Part shown: piece after piece, positions 2,822-15,349 of the stretch | How the letters are laid out: the number at the start of each line of letters is the position of its first letter | Position numbering within the stretch: the stretch's first letter is position 1 | Source: a virus | Lineage: Duplodnaviria; Caudoviricetes | Direction: 5' to 3' (one strand) | DNA: 24,865 bases | Virus record (IMG/VR): IMGVR_UViG_3300025502_001035 | Location: 1 to 24,865 of that record | Program-made: the position numbers and the translations under genes | Notes under the pieces: generated by a model | The model's input: only the letters and a program-made list of their open reading frames with translations | Told to the model about the DNA's origin: nothing | Databases searched by the model: none

Positions 2822-2853
2822 TTGACATTAGCTTATAAATAGTGTAGTATAAT
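2822..2853 (+). promoter_or_regulatory. sigma70-like promoter with a nested perfect T4 late promoter
   Basis: TTGACA 2822-2827, 17-nt spacer, TAGTAT 2845-2850 (TATAAT at 2848-2853); TATAAATA at 2834-2841; AGGAG RBS before iscU. Confidence 0.7.
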
Positions 2854-2877: not shown

Positions 2878-3261
2878 ATGGCTTATAGCGAAAAGGTATT
2901 AGATCATTACGAGAACCCAAGAAACGTAGGTTCTTTTGATAAAACTGACCCAACAGTTGGAACTGGCATGGTTGGTGCACCTGCTTGTGGTGATGTTATG
3001 AAACTACAAATTAAAGTAGAAGATGGAGTTATTACAGATGCGAAGTTCAAAACGTATGGATGTGGTTCTGCGATTGCAAGTTCAAGCCTTGTTACAGAAA
3101 TGCTCAAAGGCAAAACAATCGAGCAAGCACAAGAAATTAAAAATATGGAGATTGTTGAAGAACTATCTTTACCACCGGTAAAGATCCATTGCTCAGTACT
3201 AGCAGAAGATGCTATTAAAAGTGCATTAGCAGATTATAAGAGTAAACAAGAAACCGCATAA
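2878..3261 (+). CDS. iscU: Fe-S cluster scaffold IscU
   Basis: YSEKVLDHYENPRNVG, GAPACGDVM, KTYGCGSAIAS and the HscA-binding LPPVKIHC motif are all intact. Confidence 0.97.
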   Translation: MAYSEKVLDHYENPRNVGSFDKTDPTVGTGMVGAPACGDVMKLQIKVEDGVITDAKFKTYGCGSAIASSSLVTEMLKGKTIEQAQEIKNMEIVEELSLPPVKIHCSVLAEDAIKSALADYKSKQETA

Positions 3262-3431
3262 TGGAAGAAACTCAATCGCCCTGCGTGTCGATATGTGCTA
3301 TGGACAACGGTATATGTGTGGGGTGTGGGAGAACATCTAAGGAAGTTAGTGAGTGGCTTAACTATACAGATGAACAACGTATAACTATAATGGAAAGATT
3401 GGAGAAAGAACAAAATGATATCTTTAACTGA
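3261..3431 (+). CDS. DUF1289/YdhL-family small Cys protein (predicted Fe-S protein), 56 aa, absent from the ORF track
   Basis: Hand translation MEETQSPCVSICAMDNGICVGCGRTSKEVSEWLNYTDEQRITIMERLEKEQNDIFN shows the SPCxxxC..CxGCxRTxxExxxW signature; TAATG coupling to iscU. Confidence 0.88.
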   Translation: MEETQSPCVSICAMDNGICVGCGRTSKEVSEWLNYTDEQRITIMERLEKEQNDIFN

Positions 3432-3432
3432 T
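3413..3432 (+). repeat. 20-bp direct repeat, left copy (AAATGATATCTTTAACTGAT)
   Basis: Identical to 4645-4664. Confidence 0.95.
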
Positions 3433-3449
3433 GAAAATGGAGAAATAAA

Positions 3450-4646
3450 ATGAAAGTGTTATGTATATTATATGATGACCCTAAAGGTGGAATGCCTGAG
3501 AGTTATCCATTAAGCAATTTACCTAAAATAGACAAATATCCTGATGGCATGACATTGCCAAATCCTCAAGGACGAGATTTTAAACCTGGAGAATTATTAG
3601 GTTGTGTATCTGGTGAGTTAGGTCTTAGAAAGTTTTTAGAAGATGCTGGTCATACATTAGTCGTTACGTCTGACAAAGATGGCAAAGGATGTACGGCAGA
3701 TAAAGAATTAGTTGATGCAGATATTGTTATATCTCAACCATTTTGGCCATATTATGTAACAAGAGAATTGATGGAAACTGCCCCGAATTTAAAGATGGCG
3801 ATTACTGCCGGCATTGGTTCAGACCATGTTGACTTACAAGCCGCCATGGACCATAACATTGATGTTGTTGAAGTAACTTATTGTAACTCAAGGTCTGTTG
3901 CTGAACATATCATTATGCAGATTCTAGTTTTAGTAAGAGATTTTACTACTCAACATAAGATTGTTAATGATGGCGGTTGGCATATTGCTGATGCTGTTTC
4001 TAGGTCTTATGATGTAGAGGGTATGAATGTTGGTACAATTGCGGCTGGTCGTATTGGTCTAGATGTATTAAGAAAGATGGAGGCATTTGATGTACATCTC
4101 CATTACTTTGATAAACATAGATTAAGTATAGAACAAGAACAAAAGTTAAATCTTACATATCACGATTCAGTCGAATCAATGGTTGCAGTTTGTGATGTGA
4201 TTAACATTAGTTGTCCTTTACATCCTGAAACTGAACATCTGTTTGATGATGAGATGATTGCTAAATGTAAAAAAGGTGCTTATATAATTAATACTGCAAG
4301 AGGAAAGATTTGTGATAAAGATGCAATTGCTAGAGGTCTAGAATCAGGACATCTAAGTGGTTATGCTGGTGATGTATGGTTCCCACAACCTGCACCTAAT
4401 GACCATGTTTGGAGGACAATGCCAAATCATGCAATGACTCCTCATACATCTGGAACATCTCTATCTGCTCAGACTCGATATGCAGACGGAGTTAGAGAGA
4501 TATTAGAGTGTGTATTCAATGAGGTTGATATCAGAGATGAATATCTAATTGTTCAGAACGGAGAATTGGCTGGTGTTGGTGCTCACTCTTACACTAAAGG
4601 AACTTCAACAGGCGGCTCAGAAGAAGCGGCAGAGTTCAAAAAGTAA
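3450..4646 (+). CDS. fdh: NAD-dependent formate dehydrogenase (metal-independent, D-2-hydroxyacid dehydrogenase family)
   Basis: LLGCVSGELGLR, AGIGSDHVD, YCNS, AAGRIG Rossmann motif, YFD (NAD-specifying Asp), NTARG, WFPQP and TPHTSG; GGAGA RBS. Confidence 0.96.
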   Translation: MKVLCILYDDPKGGMPESYPLSNLPKIDKYPDGMTLPNPQGRDFKPGELLGCVSGELGLRKFLEDAGHTLVVTSDKDGKGCTADKELVDADIVISQPFWPYYVTRELMETAPNLKMAITAGIGSDHVDLQAAMDHNIDVVEVTYCNSRSVAEHIIMQILVLVRDFTTQHKIVNDGGWHIADAVSRSYDVEGMNVGTIAAGRIGLDVLRKMEAFDVHLHYFDKHRLSIEQEQKLNLTYHDSVESMVAVCDVINISCPLHPETEHLFDDEMIAKCKKGAYIINTARGKICDKDAIARGLESGHLSGYAGDVWFPQPAPNDHVWRTMPNHAMTPHTSGTSLSAQTRYADGVREILECVFNEVDIRDEYLIVQNGELAGVGAHSYTKGTSTGGSEEAAEFKK

Positions 4647-4664
4647 ATGATATCTTTAACTGAT
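4645..4664 (+). repeat. 20-bp direct repeat, right copy (start of iscA)
   Basis: Identical to 3413-3432; encodes MISLTD. Confidence 0.95.
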
Positions 4665-4967
4665 ATAGCGGCAGAGAAAGCTAGCAAAGCAATTACAAGC
4701 AGAGAAAATACTGTAGGGCTTCGTATTGGTGTAAAAACTACAGGGTGTTCAGGACTTGCTTACGTAATAGAGTTTGTTGACAGTATATTACCTGAAGACA
4801 ATACGTACACTGACAAGGGTGTTACACTAATAATAAATAAAAAAGATTTAACATACCTAGATGGCTTACAACTAGACTATCAGAAAAAAGGATTAAACGA
4901 AGGATATGAATTCATCAACCCAAATGAATCAGCAAGATGTGGATGCGGTGAAAGTTTCACGGTCTAA
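4647..4967 (+). CDS. iscA: A-type Fe-S carrier IscA
   Basis: GLRIGVKTTGCSGLAY, LDY, GLNEGYEFINPN and CGCGESF motifs. Confidence 0.95.
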   Translation: MISLTDIAAEKASKAITSRENTVGLRIGVKTTGCSGLAYVIEFVDSILPEDNTYTDKGVTLIINKKDLTYLDGLQLDYQKKGLNEGYEFINPNESARCGCGESFTV

Positions 4968-5925
4968 TAGGCGACTGTTTACTTTTGGATGCAGTTTTAC
5001 AAACTACCAATGGCCTACCTGGGCAGATATAGTAGGTCAGGAATTTAAAGAACACCAAAATTGGGGAGCAGTAGGAGGAGGTAATCTTTTTATACTCTGC
5101 TCACTCTTAGAAGCTATACAAAGAGAATCTATTAGTATTAACGACACTGTAATTGTAATGTGGTCATCTATAGGTAGAGAGGATAGATGGATCAAAGGAA
5201 GATGGGAAACTCCAGGTAGTATATATAATCAGCTTGTGTATCCCAAAGACTGGGTAGACAAATTTGCAGATCCAGATGGTTATTTAATACGTGACGCCGC
5301 ACTGATATCTGCAGTTATGAATACCTTAGATAACATTAAGTGTGAATATTACATGTTAAGCATGTTACCGTTCAACATCGTCAATGACGCAGATCTTAAT
5401 ATCCTACAAAAAATAAAATCTAAGTTCAACTTACTCAATGGTACTGAGAGACACAACACCATTGATTCAATAAGTGATACAAGTAAAGTATTAGAAATTT
5501 ATCAAGATGTGTTTGATAGAATACGCCCATCTGTCTTTGAGACCATATTTGATAATGATTGGTATAGCAGGAAAGGATTTAAGTCCATGACATGGATAGA
5601 AACCAGTTATAGAGATTCTAAAAACACATGGGCCCAACACTGGCCTCCCTATGAAGATTTTATTAACAAAGATGTTGATGATAAAACGCTACACGAAATA
5701 AAACAAGTTTATGACTTTGACAACCTAGACCAATTCTTAGAAGAAATTAAAAGATTTGAAAGTAGAAATGATCAGCACCCAACCCCCTTAGAGCATCTAG
5801 AATATCTAGATAGCGTATTACCAGAGATACTAATTAGCCAAGAAACTAGAAGTTGGACTGAAAAAAAACATCTAGATGCCGAAAAGGGAATTACCTGGGA
5901 AACAAAAAAAGTGGAGAGGCTATAG
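4948..5925 (+). CDS. SGNH-hydrolase-like phage protein
   Basis: RLFTFGCSFT N-terminal block, NWGAVGGGN, VIVMWSSIGRED and C-terminal DQHP. The start is uncertain (GTG 4948 preferred over ATG 4906). Confidence 0.6.
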   Translation: MKVSRSNRRLFTFGCSFTNYQWPTWADIVGQEFKEHQNWGAVGGGNLFILCSLLEAIQRESISINDTVIVMWSSIGREDRWIKGRWETPGSIYNQLVYPKDWVDKFADPDGYLIRDAALISAVMNTLDNIKCEYYMLSMLPFNIVNDADLNILQKIKSKFNLLNGTERHNTIDSISDTSKVLEIYQDVFDRIRPSVFETIFDNDWYSRKGFKSMTWIETSYRDSKNTWAQHWPPYEDFINKDVDDKTLHEIKQVYDFDNLDQFLEEIKRFESRNDQHPTPLEHLEYLDSVLPEILISQETRSWTEKKHLDAEKGITWETKKVERL

Positions 5926-5948
5926 CACCGTGCAAAAGGTATTTACGA

Positions 5949-6434
5949 ATGGCTGACTATAAATCTCTCTATCAAGAGGTCATCCTCGATCACAACAAGA
6001 AGCCGCGTAATTACGGTACCCTCGACCAAGCAAGTCACTCTGCGGCAGGCCATAACCCGCTGTGTGGTGATCACATTAAAGTGGCACTCAATCTTGAACA
6101 CGAGTGCATATCCTGTATAGTATTTCAGGGAGAATCATGTGCGATCTGCAAAGCGTCAGCGTCAATGATGACGACAGCCATTAAAGGTAAGTCCCGTACT
6201 GACGCAGAAGTTCTGATTCAGGAATTTCTTGCCATGGCTACTGGAAAACTCAGCCTTGACAAACTAAATCACATTGGACGGCTTGCGGTGTTTGCAGGTG
6301 TGTGCGACTTGCCTACACGTGTTAAGTGTGCAATACTGCCGTGGCACACGCTTCATGCCGCATTTAACTCAATTAACAGCACATCGACTGAAGCAGATGC
6401 AGACCCGATGCACGCCACAATAGGCAACGCATGA
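5949..6434 (+). CDS. sufU: SUF-system NifU-family protein SufU
   Basis: LYQEVILDHNKKPRN, NPLCGD, CAICKASASMM and RVKCAILPW, with the SufU-type insertion and no LPPVK motif. Confidence 0.92.
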   Translation: MADYKSLYQEVILDHNKKPRNYGTLDQASHSAAGHNPLCGDHIKVALNLEHECISCIVFQGESCAICKASASMMTTAIKGKSRTDAEVLIQEFLAMATGKLSLDKLNHIGRLAVFAGVCDLPTRVKCAILPWHTLHAAFNSINSTSTEADADPMHATIGNA

Positions 6435-6462
6435 TGTAATGCCGAATTTTTAGGGGGTTAAG

Positions 6463-7017
6463 ATGCCGAAAATAGCAGAAATTGAAGACACACCCAATCC
6501 GAACGCGGTGAAGTTTATTCTTAAAGAACCGCTGACTTGGGGGATAACACACTCGTACGACAACGCCGAGCAGGCGCAGGATGATACCCTTGCCTCCACA
6601 CTATTCGATATCGAACACGTGACCAATGTGTTTTACATCGATCGCTGGCTCACGGTCACACAGGACGGTGAAGCCGACTGGCCAGAATTAGTTCGTAAAG
6701 TCGCCGTGCCGATTCGAGCCGCACCAGCGGCAGAGGAGCAATCTGCTACCACTGTTGCGGCCTCTGCTGATACTGACCTAAGCCCTGAGGATCAGCGGCG
6801 CCTTGATGTGATCAACGTGATGTTGGACGAGCAGATCCGTCCTTCGCTACAAGGTGATGGCGGCGATCTAAAAATACTTGATCTCAACGGTAACCAGCTA
6901 ACAGTACACTACCAAGGTGCATGCGGAACCTGTCCGTCCTCAATAGCAGGAACGTTGCGTGGCATCGAGAATCTACTTCGATCAATTGAACCTGATATCG
7001 AACTTGTAGCTGTTTAA
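6463..7017 (+). CDS. Nfu/NifU-family Fe-S carrier (Nfu_N + NifU-C domains)
   Basis: TPNPNAVKF N-terminal motif; IRPSLQGDGGD...GACGTCPSS C-terminal CxxC. Confidence 0.92.
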   Translation: MPKIAEIEDTPNPNAVKFILKEPLTWGITHSYDNAEQAQDDTLASTLFDIEHVTNVFYIDRWLTVTQDGEADWPELVRKVAVPIRAAPAAEEQSATTVAASADTDLSPEDQRRLDVINVMLDEQIRPSLQGDGGDLKILDLNGNQLTVHYQGACGTCPSSIAGTLRGIENLLRSIEPDIELVAV

Positions 7018-7042
7018 GTTATTAACTCTGACAAAATAATAG

Positions 7043-7081
7043 TTGACATTATTAAAAAATCGTGTAAAATTGTATTAAATA
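7043..7081 (+). promoter_or_regulatory. sigma70-like promoter plus downstream TAAATA motif
   Basis: TTGACA 7043-7048, 16-nt spacer, TAAAAT 7065-7070; TAAATA 7076-7081. Confidence 0.55.
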
Positions 7082-7125
7082 GAACTTATCCTACGTAGTA
7101 ACACATTAAAAATCAAGGACACTGC

Positions 7126-7809
7126 ATGATAACAAATAAATTTGATTATAAAGAGTTAACTAGAACAACCACAGAACATCAACGGTTGTATCAATGTCCA
7201 GATGGTAATGCTGTTCCTAGTGTAACAACTATCTTAGATAAAACAAAATCAGCAGAAAAAACTAAAGCATTAGCAAATTGGCGTAGGAGCATAGGTGAAG
7301 CAAAAGCAACTGAAATAGTTACTGAAGCCGCCAACAGAGGAACACGTATGCACACTTACTTAGAAAATTATGTTCTAGGTGAAGAACTAAAAGAGACAGT
7401 GTCTAATCCTTATGCTCAACAGAGTCTAGACATGGCTAAGATTGTTATTAAAGAAGGTCTATCAAATGTAGATGAGTATTGGGGGACTGAAGTTGCTTTA
7501 TACTTTCCGGAAATTTATGCAGGTACAACTGACCTAGTAGGTGTACACAAAGGTGACGATGCAATACTTGATTTTAAACAATCAAACAAACCAAAGAAGC
7601 GTGAATGGATTGAAGATTACTTTCTTCAACTAGTAGCCTACGCAGAAGCACACAACGAAGTGTACGGAACTAATATACGCAAAGGTGTAGTACTGATGTG
7701 TACCAAGGACTATAAATACCAAGAGTTCATAACAGAAGGCGTAGAATGGGATATGTGGAAACAGAAATGGTGGGACCGGGTAGAGCAATACTATAAAAAA
7801 CATAGATGA
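7126..7809 (+). CDS. PD-(D/E)XK exonuclease (phage/MGME1-like)
   Basis: PSVTTIL, RGTRMH, E..., YAGTTD, ILDFKQS and LQLVAY motifs. Confidence 0.85.
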   Translation: MITNKFDYKELTRTTTEHQRLYQCPDGNAVPSVTTILDKTKSAEKTKALANWRRSIGEAKATEIVTEAANRGTRMHTYLENYVLGEELKETVSNPYAQQSLDMAKIVIKEGLSNVDEYWGTEVALYFPEIYAGTTDLVGVHKGDDAILDFKQSNKPKKREWIEDYFLQLVAYAEAHNEVYGTNIRKGVVLMCTKDYKYQEFITEGVEWDMWKQKWWDRVEQYYKKHR

Positions 7810-8330
7810 TTAAGTTTGCATTTGGGTGTAGTCACACTGCCGGAGTTGGTGTAGAATTACATGAGGCGTTTCCTAATCTTCTTAATGCAACTAACTACGG
7901 AGTTGAAGGAATCAGTGCTAACTTTCTTGCCAGACATCTAATAGAAAAAGTACAAGAACAAAAGCCAGATGTAATTTATATTCTTTGGCCTGATTGGTCC
8001 CGCTTTGAATATATAGATAACGACGGTAATACACAACAGTCACTTCCTACAGATACTAATCGAATTCATTTTATGGAAACTGCTACTGACGATTGGTTAA
8101 AGAGCAATTTTAAAAAAGTTGTTGATAGCGTGCATACCTATTGCGTAGATAACAAAATTACGTTGATAGATGCAACACTGTATGATCTTATACCGTTTAT
8201 TAATCATGCAGACAAATGGCCCGTATCTAAATTAGGACATCACTATAGCGAAATTTGGCATCAATGGGTAGCTGACATTTTTAATAACGCATTACAAAAT
8301 AATACAAGATTTCCACTTAATAATGAATAA
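7806..8330 (+). CDS. SGNH-like hypothetical protein
   Basis: FAFGCSHTAGVG, NYGVEGIS, ILWPDWSRFE and C-terminal GHH. Confidence 0.55.
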   Translation: MIKFAFGCSHTAGVGVELHEAFPNLLNATNYGVEGISANFLARHLIEKVQEQKPDVIYILWPDWSRFEYIDNDGNTQQSLPTDTNRIHFMETATDDWLKSNFKKVVDSVHTYCVDNKITLIDATLYDLIPFINHADKWPVSKLGHHYSEIWHQWVADIFNNALQNNTRFPLNNE

Positions 8331-8336
8331 ACATAA

Positions 8337-8696
8337 ATGATTGACATACTATTTGCTCTCGTCGTTAAACACTGTATAATTGATTTAGGATTACAGAGCC
8401 AACTCCTTGCCAACAAAACACATAAAAAAGTGTTTTATTTTGGATGTCACGAACATTATATACATCATGCTATAGGAACATTTGTAGCACTGTATTTTTT
8501 TACAGATATATCAATAGTACTATTAGCAAGTGTTATAGATTACCTAGCACACTGGCATATCGACTTTGCAAAACATAATCTAAATAATTGGTTAGAATAT
8601 ACTAGAAAAGATAAACTTTTTTGGTGGGTAGCAGTAGTTGATCAGTTGTTACATTTCTTAACTTACTATCTTTTGGTCCTCTATGTTATTTCCTAG
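8337..8696 (+). CDS. His-rich membrane protein (DUF3307-like)
   Basis: Hydrophobic helices with KHxxxD, HxxxH, HWHID and DQLLH motifs. Confidence 0.7.
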   Translation: MIDILFALVVKHCIIDLGLQSQLLANKTHKKVFYFGCHEHYIHHAIGTFVALYFFTDISIVLLASVIDYLAHWHIDFAKHNLNNWLEYTRKDKLFWWVAVVDQLLHFLTYYLLVLYVIS

Positions 8697-14200: not shown

Positions 14201-15349
14201 ATGTGGAATAACCCAGATACAATTGACAATGAAATTATATCTATGGCAAAAGATCTCAAATGTAATTGGATAGGAGCAGTTAAAGTTGACGCACAGTCTG
14301 CATACGAGTATAATAACTGCCACAACAATGTTAGAATACACTCTAGTATATATGGGGGTAAGGAAGTAGTTGGCTATTATTTTGTGAAAGGGTTTAATGT
14401 TGTACAAGCTATAAGACATAGTGTATGGGAAGACAACACGTTAGTAGATGTCACCCCATACAAGGATAACAGAGAACATATTATTTTTGCATTAAGTGTA
14501 GACCAATCTAACGATTACTCGATACCTAACTGTTACTCTCAGTCTCTTTCTAAATACTTAGAACAGGAGAGTGAGAGCATGTATTATGTATATCAAATAG
14601 TAGATCCGAGAAACAACCAACCATTTTATATCGGCAAAGGTACAGGTAACAGAGCATCAACACATTTACGGACTGTGCCTGACACTAGAAATGTGTACAA
14701 AGAAAATAAAATCGCTAGTATAAGAAAGTCCGGAGTAGAACCAGTAATTGAATATATCGCTGAAAACATATTAGACGAGAAATTAGCGTATGATATTGAG
14801 GCTACTGTAATTAAAAAGTATGGTAGAAAAGGATATGACAAGAATGGCATATTAACTAATATATGCCCTGACGCTCGCCCACCTAATCACAAAGGTAAAA
14901 CATACGAAGAAATATACGGGGTTAATAAAGCAAAGCAACAACGAGAATTAAGATCACGCCTCCAGAAAGAGAGAGGTGGGTATGGTCCTAAACAACATAG
15001 CATCGAAACACGAAAACGATTTAGTGAATTAAATTCTGGCACCGGAAACCCAATGTACGGTAAAACACAGAAAGAAAGTACTAAGGCGTTAATTAGCGAA
15101 AAAGCAAAGTTGCTTGTCGGCAAAAAAAATAAAAATAGCCACACTTACAGACTAACATCTCCAATTGGGGATGAGCACATATTATACGGCGGAGAAGCCG
15201 CTGATTTCTGTAAAACACATAATTTAAGTTGGAGTACTCTTAAAATGCAAATTGAAAAGAAATGGGGTATTCCAAAAAAAGGCAAAACTAAAGGGTGGAG
15301 GTTAGAAGATTTAACGGCTCCTACAATATTTAAAGGATTTAGTCTATAA
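14201..15349 (+). CDS. GIY-YIG (LEM-3-like)/NUMOD3 homing endonuclease with an in-frame 126-aa N-terminal domain; probable internal start at 14579
   Basis: YYVYQIVDPRNNQPFYIGKGTGNR; NUMOD3-like KQHSIETRKRFSE and GNPMYGKTQKESTKALISEK; AGGAGA RBS before ATG 14579. Confidence 0.85.
   Translation: MWNNPDTIDNEIISMAKDLKCNWIGAVKVDAQSAYEYNNCHNNVRIHSSIYGGKEVVGYYFVKGFNVVQAIRHSVWEDNTLVDVTPYKDNREHIIFALSVDQSNDYSIPNCYSQSLSKYLEQESESMYYVYQIVDPRNNQPFYIGKGTGNRASTHLRTVPDTRNVYKENKIASIRKSGVEPVIEYIAENILDEKLAYDIEATVIKKYGRKGYDKNGILTNICPDARPPNHKGKTYEEIYGVNKAKQQRELRSRLQKERGGYGPKQHSIETRKRFSELNSGTGNPMYGKTQKESTKALISEKAKLLVGKKNKNSHTYRLTSPIGDEHILYGGEAADFCKTHNLSWSTLKMQIEKKWGIPKKGKTKGWRLEDLTAPTIFKGFSL
14536..14577 (+). promoter_or_regulatory. 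RBS-sequestering hairpin with late-promoter motif TAAATA (14551-14556) at its apex
   Basis: CTCTCA.TCTCT.TTCTAA pairs with TTAGAA..GGAGA.TGAGAG (17 bp, one G-U). Confidence 0.75.

What the first reader, a model, noticed from the sequence alone, without database searches (positions are those of the whole stretch)
2878..7017. Phage operon combining ISC, SUF and Nfu Fe-S biogenesis proteins with formate dehydrogenase
Seen: iscU - DUF1289 - fdh - iscA - SGNH-like - sufU - nfu are co-oriented and tightly spaced between a promoter (2822) and the next promoter (7043), flanked by phage genes, with all Cys ligands intact. Known: IscU (LPPVK, HscA-dependent) and SufU (SufS partner) belong to different pathways that are normally encoded separately; single iscU or iscA genes occur in phages. 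Inferred: a virus-assembled hybrid module able to plug into either host desulfurase system, with formate oxidation supplying NADH. No cysteine desulfurase is present in this window. I do not know of a described phage operon with this combination.
Basis: partly seen in the sequence, partly recalled or inferred. Interest (0 to 1): 0.9.

Follow-up and report, generated by a model that had tools for sequence, protein, structure and literature searches.

The report
Jumbo-phage iron-sulfur gene accretion island
A large uncultured lake phage carries a real, stepwise-assembled cluster of small iron-sulfur assembly genes, two of them trimmed from a captured bacterial operon and conserved in a second phage, which likely tops up the host's own cluster-building machinery, while the formate dehydrogenase in the cluster is likely an unrelated recent arrival.

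Summary
The seven genes are real, intact and not chimeric: contigs from other runs bridge both suspected junctions. The cluster is not one invented operon. It fills a variable slot of a jumbo-phage family (the window is about 5% of the genome). iscU-(DUF1289)-iscA is the old, common core. fdh is a recent insertion, marked by a 20-nt duplication and near-identical to fdh in two other phages. sufU-nfu (GC about 50% versus 36%) is the tail of a proteobacterial suf operon, with the last sufS codons still attached. A second, distantly related phage carries the same capture trimmed differently (sufB, sufU, grxD, nfu). Both lack sufCDS and keep sufU and nfu with dN/dS about 0.1. The likely job is to add small sulfur acceptors and cluster carriers to host ISC and SUF machinery, for phage Fe-S enzymes. 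Formate coupling is unsupported: 39 of 40 other phage fdh loci have no Fe-S gene nearby. Phage iscU/iscA, sufB and fdh are in print; I found no report of this combination. This scan earlier noted phage FDH and a reduced jumbo-phage ISC/SUF kit on other DNA. Expression and host are untested. New variant of a known kind; interest 0.5.

The parts
2822..2850 (+). Sigma-70-like promoter candidate upstream of iscU (10 of 12 consensus matches)
   Evidence: consensus match only, and the count of sites is not above shuffles
2878..3261 (+). iscU scaffold (Y3, C37, D39, C62, LPPVK 98-102, H104, C105); old core of the slot, phage-like codon usage
   Evidence: TIGR01999 above cut-off; motifs; GC3 0.23; in 18 of 36 related loci with both flanking genes
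3261..3431 (+). DUF1289 four-cysteine protein; its 3' end uses a leftover copy of the iscA start
   Evidence: PF06945; overlaps the iscA start in relatives L003, L013, L018
3413..3432 (+). First copy of an exact 20-nt direct repeat (second copy 4645-4664): the duplicated iscA start left by the fdh insertion
   Evidence: longest repeat in 200 codon shuffles was 17 nt
3450..4646 (+). Metal-independent NAD-dependent formate dehydrogenase; recent phage-to-phage insertion
   Evidence: NF005750 643 bits; PDB 2gsd/2nac E<1e-180; 4 synonymous differences from L083 and 1 difference from L205 over 398 codons
4647..4967 (+). A-type Fe-S carrier, IscA-like (C34, C98, C100)
   Evidence: TIGR00049 above cut-off; IscA equivalog 131 bits against cut-off 150.6
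4906..5925 (+). Phage SGNH-fold hydrolase-like protein (S30, N60, D289/H291); start codon uncertain; no Fe-S link shown
   Evidence: 979 homologues of 2044 candidates; same slot in L009, L010, L011, L018
5926..5948 (+). Stub of the 3' end of bacterial sufS (about seven codons), probably kept as the sufU ribosome-binding region
   Evidence: alignment with 7 cellular suf operons; the ribosome-binding role is inference
5949..6434 (+). sufU sulfur-transfer protein (C39, D41, C64, R124, C127; no LPPVK); GC3 0.46
   Evidence: TIGR01994 above cut-off; dN/dS 0.088 against L205
6463..7017 (+). Nfu carrier with Nfu_N + NifU domains (CGTC 154-157); not NfuA; GC3 0.49
   Evidence: dN/dS 0.099 against L209; groups with L209 inside proteobacterial Nfu
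7043..7070 (+). Sigma-70-like promoter candidate for the downstream exonuclease (11 of 12 matches); the same nfu-promoter-exonuclease junction is in phage B

Best explanation
This is a real, variable gene slot of a jumbo phage in which iscU, iscA, a recently inserted fdh and the trimmed tail of a bacterial suf operon (sufU-nfu) sit together, and its small Fe-S proteins likely add sulfur-acceptor and carrier capacity to the host's own ISC and SUF machinery to mature phage iron-sulfur enzymes. Shown: layered origin, intact ligands, loss of sufC/sufD/sufS, retention of sufU and nfu in two differently trimmed phage copies, and a synonymous excess between those copies. Inferred from known chemistry: IscU takes sulfur from an IscS (host, or phage-coded elsewhere), SufU takes persulfide from the host SufS and passes it to host SufBCD, and IscA and Nfu deliver clusters to clients such as the radical-SAM enzymes common in relatives. 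FDH likely acts separately as a general NADH source.
For: Slot: of 36 related loci with both flanking genes, 18 have iscU, 20 iscA and 9 are empty (54-55 nt); 0 of 79 have fdh, sufU or nfu. fdh scar: 20-nt repeat, a 959-nt run identical to T4-like L083, identity ending about 40 nt into iscA. suf capture: GC3 0.46-0.49 against about 0.25; sufS stub; cellular order sufB-C-D-S-U-bolA-grxD-nfu in L126. Phage B keeps sufB, a sufC/sufS fusion stub, sufU, grxD and nfu. A and B carry different deletions that both leave sufU and nfu open. sufU 10 synonymous/3 non-synonymous changes, nfu 25/9. An independent sufB-nfu pair lies in L309/L310. Radical SAM genes occur in 12 of 19 records, up to 15 each, and in this same slot in L008, L046, L056. 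3 of 5 cellular genomes with this suf operon also hold IscU at 72-80%. SufU needs its cognate SufS (PMC13066941, passages).
Against: No expression data and no host. The window's own record has no radical SAM gene, so the clients are inferred from relatives. The synonymous excess could come from re-templating by host alleles rather than from selection in the phage. The control meant to show decay of the sufS stub was inconclusive (dN/dS 0.21 and 0.11 against two references). The independent capture L310 kept sufB-nfu but not sufU. sufU was seen in only this one capture among the viral loci I fetched. The join of L205 and L209 into one phage rests on a 39-nt overlap with one mismatch.
Confidence: 0.6

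Rival explanations
1. An integrated module: ISC, SUF and Nfu parts are co-expressed and co-selected with FDH, whose NADH drives cluster assembly.
For: All genes are co-oriented with short gaps between two promoter-like sites. DUF1289-fdh-iscA travelled together with the suf fragment between phages A and B. fdh lies beside Fe-S genes in two further phages: between iscU and iscA in L083, and about 430 nt after sufB in L110. One cellular operon (L126) has a distant fdh (64%) right after nfu.
Against: 39 of 40 other viral fdh loci have no Fe-S assembly gene in the fetched flank, many of which are short; their neighbours are terminase, neck, helicase or clamp-loader genes. 0 of 79 iscU loci have fdh within 5 kb. 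A, B and L083 share one recent allele, so they are not independent. No ferredoxin or reductase gene is in the cluster. An unrelated SGNH gene sits in the middle.
Confidence: 0.15
2. sufU is a passenger. Only nfu (or nothing) is useful, the suf operon is decaying, and sufU has simply not been deleted yet.
For: Codon usage is still foreign. sufC, sufD, sufS and bolA are already lost. The independent capture L309/L310 kept nfu but no sufU. The stub-decay control was inconclusive.
Against: sufU shows 10 synonymous against 3 non-synonymous changes, p about 8e-5 under neutrality. Deletions on both sides of sufU, different in A and B, leave its frame and all ligands intact.
Confidence: 0.2
3. The sufU-nfu block is a mis-assembly of bacterial DNA into a phage contig.
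For: GC steps from about 0.37 to 0.50 and back at 5926 and 7017.
Against: Contigs from runs not flagged as the source bridge both junctions without differences and at phage-like depth (X5: 5433-8500; X4: 5706-5988 and 6459-7908). A different phage shares the nfu-promoter-exonuclease junction at 94%, and three freshwater runs bridge it.
Confidence: 0.02

Closest known systems
Marine phage iscU and A-type carrier genes (Nishimura et al. 2017, PMC5332604; passages read)
   Same: Large phages carrying IscU and A-type carriers together with Fe-S client enzymes such as radical SAM proteins; patchy among relatives.
   Different: The passages read do not mention SufU, Nfu or FDH; here a trimmed suf operon tail and fdh share the slot.
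Proteobacterial sufBCDSU-(bolA)-grxD-nfu operon (L126, L128 and Nitrosomonadaceae)
   Same: Source of sufU-nfu: same order, 78-80% nucleotide identity to L126, sufS 3' end retained.
   Different: Scaffold, ATPase and desulfurase genes are gone, so the phage fragment cannot build clusters alone.
Bacillus subtilis SufS-SufU sulfur transfer (PDB 5xt5; PMC13066941 passages)
   Same: Cys/Asp/Cys/Cys zinc ligands, the Arg before the last Cys, and the insertion absent from IscU.
   Different: Proteobacterial lineage, no cognate sufS in cis, activity untested.
Pseudomonas sp. 101 / Moraxella NAD-dependent FDH (PDB 2nac, 2gsd) and the pelagimyophage fdh (PMC7029224 passage)
   Same: Full-length enzyme with the active-site residues; phage fdh is already mentioned in print, and 43 viral loci were found here.
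   Different: Here it is inserted between DUF1289 and iscA.
Other phage SUF genes: sufB in amoC phages (bioRxiv 10.64898/2026.06.18.733297, passages), sufE without sufS in viromes (PMC8940887, passages), lone SufU-like genes in mycobacteriophage records, sufBCDS-sufT in jumbo-phage contigs
   Same: Phages holding single SUF parts without the desulfurase; the 'limiting small partner' idea was already proposed for sufE.
   Different: I did not see IscU and SufU together in any of them (0 of 20 sufB-bearing virus records had a NifU_N protein).

Membership tests
IscU (ISC scaffold) | TIGR01999 above cut-off; three Cys, Asp, His and LPPVK | tested here: met
   223.5 against 192.4 bits; C37, D39, C62, LPPVK, H104, C105
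SufU (zinc sulfur-transfer protein) | TIGR01994 above cut-off; C/D/C/C ligands, conserved Arg, insertion between Cys2 and Cys3, no LPPVK | tested here: met
   142.7 against 92.5 bits
SufU (zinc sulfur-transfer protein) | Binds zinc and accepts persulfide from SufS | not testable with these tools
   needs biochemistry; no complex prediction was run
IscA sensu stricto | TIGR02011 / PRK09502 cut-off | tested here: not met
   131 against 150.6 and 131.9 against 181 bits; the general A-type carrier model TIGR00049 is met
NfuA (E. coli type) | N-terminal degenerate A-type domain plus Nfu domain | tested here: not met
   Nfu_N + NifU domains instead; TIGR03341 23 against 269 bits
Nfu-type carrier | C-terminal NifU domain with CxxC | tested here: met
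   PF01106 above cut-off; CGTC 154-157
NAD-dependent FDH | NF005750 cut-off; N146, D221, R284, Q313, H332 | tested here: met
   643 against 329 bits; residues located; their roles and the Pseudomonas numbering are recalled
SGNH hydrolase | Fold plus Ser, Gly, Asn, Asp-x-His motifs | tested here: inconclusive
   All top Foldseek hits are SGNH enzymes but weak (best E 2.6e-4, TM 0.31/0.54); motifs invariant or nearly so in 78 homologues; no Pfam hit
Complete ISC system | iscS, iscU, hscBA, fdx | tested here: not met
   only iscU and the A-type carrier are in the cluster; about 95% of the genome is unseen
Complete SUF system | sufB, sufC, sufD, sufS with sufU or sufE | tested here: not met
   only sufU and a sufS stub are present
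Operon | One transcript from iscU to nfu | not tested

The most novel reading that the evidence does not exclude
A phage captured a whole suf operon and, in two lineages independently, whittled it down to the small sulfur acceptor and carrier (SufU, Nfu) beside its own IscU and IscA: an evolved dual-pathway tap that draws sulfur from both host desulfurases at once and routes the clusters to phage radical-SAM enzymes.
Probability: 0.35. Interest if true: 0.72.

Novelty: new variant of a known kind. Interest (0 to 1): 0.5.

Why it matters
It gives a rare, readable record of how a phage turns a captured host operon into auxiliary genes: one capture, two different trims, the large enzymes dropped and the small partners kept under selection. 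If the proteins work as inferred, it tests the standing idea that phages supply the limiting small partner of a host enzyme. It also shows that jumbo phages sample ISC and SUF parts repeatedly (iscS, iscU, iscA, erpA, sufB, sufT, nfu, grxD all appear in fetched loci), pointing to Fe-S supply as a bottleneck for phages rich in radical-SAM enzymes. The enzymes themselves are ordinary.

Tried and rejected
Chimera: rejected. Reading runs X10-X12 as a strain of the window's phage: rejected; their loose ends match L205/L209, so they hold phage B. Host identification: not achieved. The iscU DNA reached at most 79% in 201 genomes of the family of G023; the sufU-nfu DNA matched strongly only G021 itself among 101 genomes of its family; the only named close FDH hit was a Pelagibacteraceae MAG at 90%; no cultured phage exceeds 52% on the exonuclease. 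Stub decay as a neutral control: inconclusive over 39 codons; the grxD comparison in that call was out of frame and is discarded. The SufU tree did not finish and the Nfu tree is the quick method only. The exonuclease 5' remnant in phage B gave dN/dS 0.42, not significant. Promoter and terminator scans were not above chance. sufU-like hits in Staphylococcus, Listeria and Enterococcus phage records, and the sufBCDS-U block at the very end of Microcystis phage MaAM05, look like host DNA (only ISU935 and MaAM05 were opened); the 16 mycobacteriophage records look genuine but were seen only as a listing. No complex prediction was run, because SufS-SufU and IscS-IscU are textbook pairs.
Full report
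Observation. The seven ORFs are present on the + strand at the stated places. They match IscU, DUF1289, NAD-dependent FDH, an A-type carrier, SufU and a two-domain Nfu. The carrier falls below the IscA equivalog cut-off and the Nfu is not NfuA. All expected ligands are intact. The 339-aa ORF has no family hit, but a confident model (pLDDT 89) resembles SGNH hydrolases weakly and consistently, so 'SGNH-like' is fair. The neighbours are phage genes: exonuclease, tail spike, nrdAB, PAAR protein, ligase. CheckV rates the window at about 5% complete, and related records of 212-289 kb at 55-80%, so this is a fragment of a jumbo phage. No cultured phage is close (best exonuclease identity 52%).

Not a chimera. 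sufU-nfu has GC3 0.46-0.49 against about 0.25 for the backbone, which is what a mis-join would look like. However, a contig of run X5 covers 5433-8500 with no differences at depth 5.75, similar to the flanks (7-8), and run X4 bridges 5926 and 7017 separately. These runs share a habitat label with the possible source runs and may belong to one campaign. Independent support comes from a different phage, below, which shares the nfu-promoter-exonuclease junction.

Layer 1, the old core. Among 79 related viral loci found with the downstream exonuclease, 36 also hold the upstream flanking gene. The slot between them runs from 54 to 4751 nt: 18 of 36 have iscU, 20 have iscA, 9 are empty, and none of the 79 has fdh, sufU or nfu (several loci are near-duplicates). 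Other cargo in this slot includes ErpA, a cold-shock protein, a flavin monooxygenase and radical-SAM enzymes. iscU is common in viral contigs (about 5200 stretches estimated from 8 of 64 parts). Of 79 iscU loci, 67 have iscA and 14 have DUF1289 within 5 kb, and none has fdh, sufU or nfu.

Layer 2, fdh. In close relatives DUF1289 overlaps the iscA start directly. In the window that start is duplicated as an exact 20-nt repeat on both sides of fdh (3413 and 4645); 200 shuffles gave at most 17 nt. fdh is nearly identical to the gene in T4-like phage L083 (959-nt identical run, identity ending about 40 nt into iscA). This fits a recent recombination into iscA (inference). Phage FDH is widespread: 43 viral loci, mostly next to terminase, neck, helicase or clamp-loader genes. 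Of the 40 loci other than the window's own copies and L083, only L110 has an Fe-S gene nearby (sufB). That argues against a dedicated formate-to-cluster link, although many of those loci are short.

Layer 3, a trimmed suf operon. The closest cellular Nfu proteins lie in proteobacterial suf operons (the scan covered 21 of 64 parts), usually just after sufU. Window 5926-5948 aligns with the last codons of sufS in 7 of 7 operons compared. An exact-match scan of metagenomes gave 3 contigs: the window itself, L205 and L206. L205 is a distantly related phage (flanking proteins 27-51% identical) that carries an intein-split iscU, DUF1289 (95%), fdh (one amino-acid difference), iscA (96%), an intact sufB, a sufC/sufS fusion stub, sufU (98%) and grxD. 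L209 continues with nfu (94%), the same promoter, and a fragment of the window-type exonuclease fused to an iscA. I treat L205 and L209 as one phage B on a 39-nt overlap with one mismatch and on runs X10-X12, which show features of both. Against the cellular order sufS-sufU-bolA-grxD-nfu, the window lost bolA-grxD but kept the original sufU end, whereas B lost bolA, kept grxD and gained a new sufU end. Neither arrangement derives from the other, so both come from one longer capture (inference). The two phage Nfu proteins group together at 100% support inside proteobacterial sequences (quick tree, 84 rows). Between A and B, sufU shows 10 synonymous and 3 non-synonymous changes (dN/dS 0.088) and nfu 25 and 9 (0.099), like iscA (0.095) (simple pairwise counts). 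Re-templating from host alleles could give the same signal, and the stub-decay control was inconclusive.

Wider pattern. A separate sufB-nfu pair (Nfu 54% identical, on another branch) sits in a 289-kb relative with no IscU/SufU-type gene and only a weak aminotransferase-V hit. Other large virus records carry iscS alone (G014, above the IscS cut-off), iscS-iscU (L302, L304, L305), sufT-nfu-iscS (L303), grxD-iscU-iscA (L231) or sufBCDS-sufT (L318 and others). Kinship of G014 to the window's family rests on one short shared protein, and it is not shown for L302-L305 or L318. Radical-SAM genes occur in 12 of 19 records searched, up to 15 per record, but not in the window. 19 of 20 records searched, all incomplete, have no desulfurase.

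How it likely works. IscU needs IscS, and SufU is a zinc sulfur-transfer partner restricted to its cognate SufS (PMC13066941, passages; PMC8593673, passages). The phage keeps only small acceptors and carriers. The simplest reading is that they raise flux through host ISC and SUF and hand clusters to phage Fe-S enzymes. Hosts with both systems are ordinary: 3 of 5 genomes with this suf operon also encode a close IscU, and Myxococcus has isc plus sufBCDSUT (PMC9973013, passages). None of these functional steps was tested here. The host is unknown.

Novelty. Phage iscU and A-type carriers with radical-SAM clients (PMC5332604), phage fdh (PMC7029224), phage sufB (bioRxiv 10.64898/2026.06.18.733297) and viral sufE without sufS (PMC8940887) are in print; I read matching passages only, and no supplements, where gene tables could list such loci. 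Lone SufU-like genes occur in 16 mycobacteriophage records. Nine literature searches showed no phage locus with IscU, SufU and Nfu together; the library lacks most subscription journals. Earlier AI notes of this scan describe phage FDH, IscU inteins and a reduced ISC/SUF kit in another jumbo phage; these are leads, not support. Verdict: a real, well-documented new variant of phage Fe-S auxiliary genes, with an unusually clear evolutionary history and ordinary enzymes. Interest 0.5.

Noticed in passing
L205:5193-7724 (-): Phage B's iscU is an 843-aa ORF with two inteins, each inserted just before a cluster-ligating cysteine, followed by a probable homing nuclease gene.
   Followed up: partly
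L209:699-1109: In-frame fusion of 57 codons of the window-type exonuclease to the 3' part of an iscA, keeping all three cysteines; possibly a second working A-type carrier.
   Followed up: partly
L290 (G014:C1:9976-11064); L302-L308: Full-length phage-borne IscS, in G014 between dnaJ and peptide deformylase; 8 viral loci found, three with iscU next to it.
   Followed up: partly
L311, L322, L332, L349 and others: sufB stands alone, without sufC or sufD in the fetched flank, among phage genes in many large viral contigs; its role without partners is unexplained.
   Followed up: no
L314, L318, L320, L331, L338; G340: Virus records with sufB-sufC-sufD-sufS-sufT runs; a complete 328-kb record has sufB, sufC, sufD and a SufS-like gene but no IscU/SufU-type gene.
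   Followed up: partly
window 3261-3431; L349:8428-8649: DUF1289 sits between iscU and iscA in 14 of 79 iscU loci and right after sufB in L349, which hints at a role in Fe-S biogenesis; six papers hold the term, seen as a listing only.
   Followed up: no
window 14201-15349: GIY-YIG/NUMOD3 homing-endonuclease-like gene between nrdB and glutaredoxin, absent from the 96%-identical relative L002.
   Followed up: no
window 2878-3078 in runs X10-X12: A very deep contig (depth 580-1230) about 87% identical to the phage iscU, with unlike sequence upstream; possibly a cellular iscU of an abundant organism and a host lead.
   Followed up: no
window 7806-8330: A second short ORF beginning with a motif like that of the SGNH-fold ORF; absent from several relatives.
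   Followed up: no
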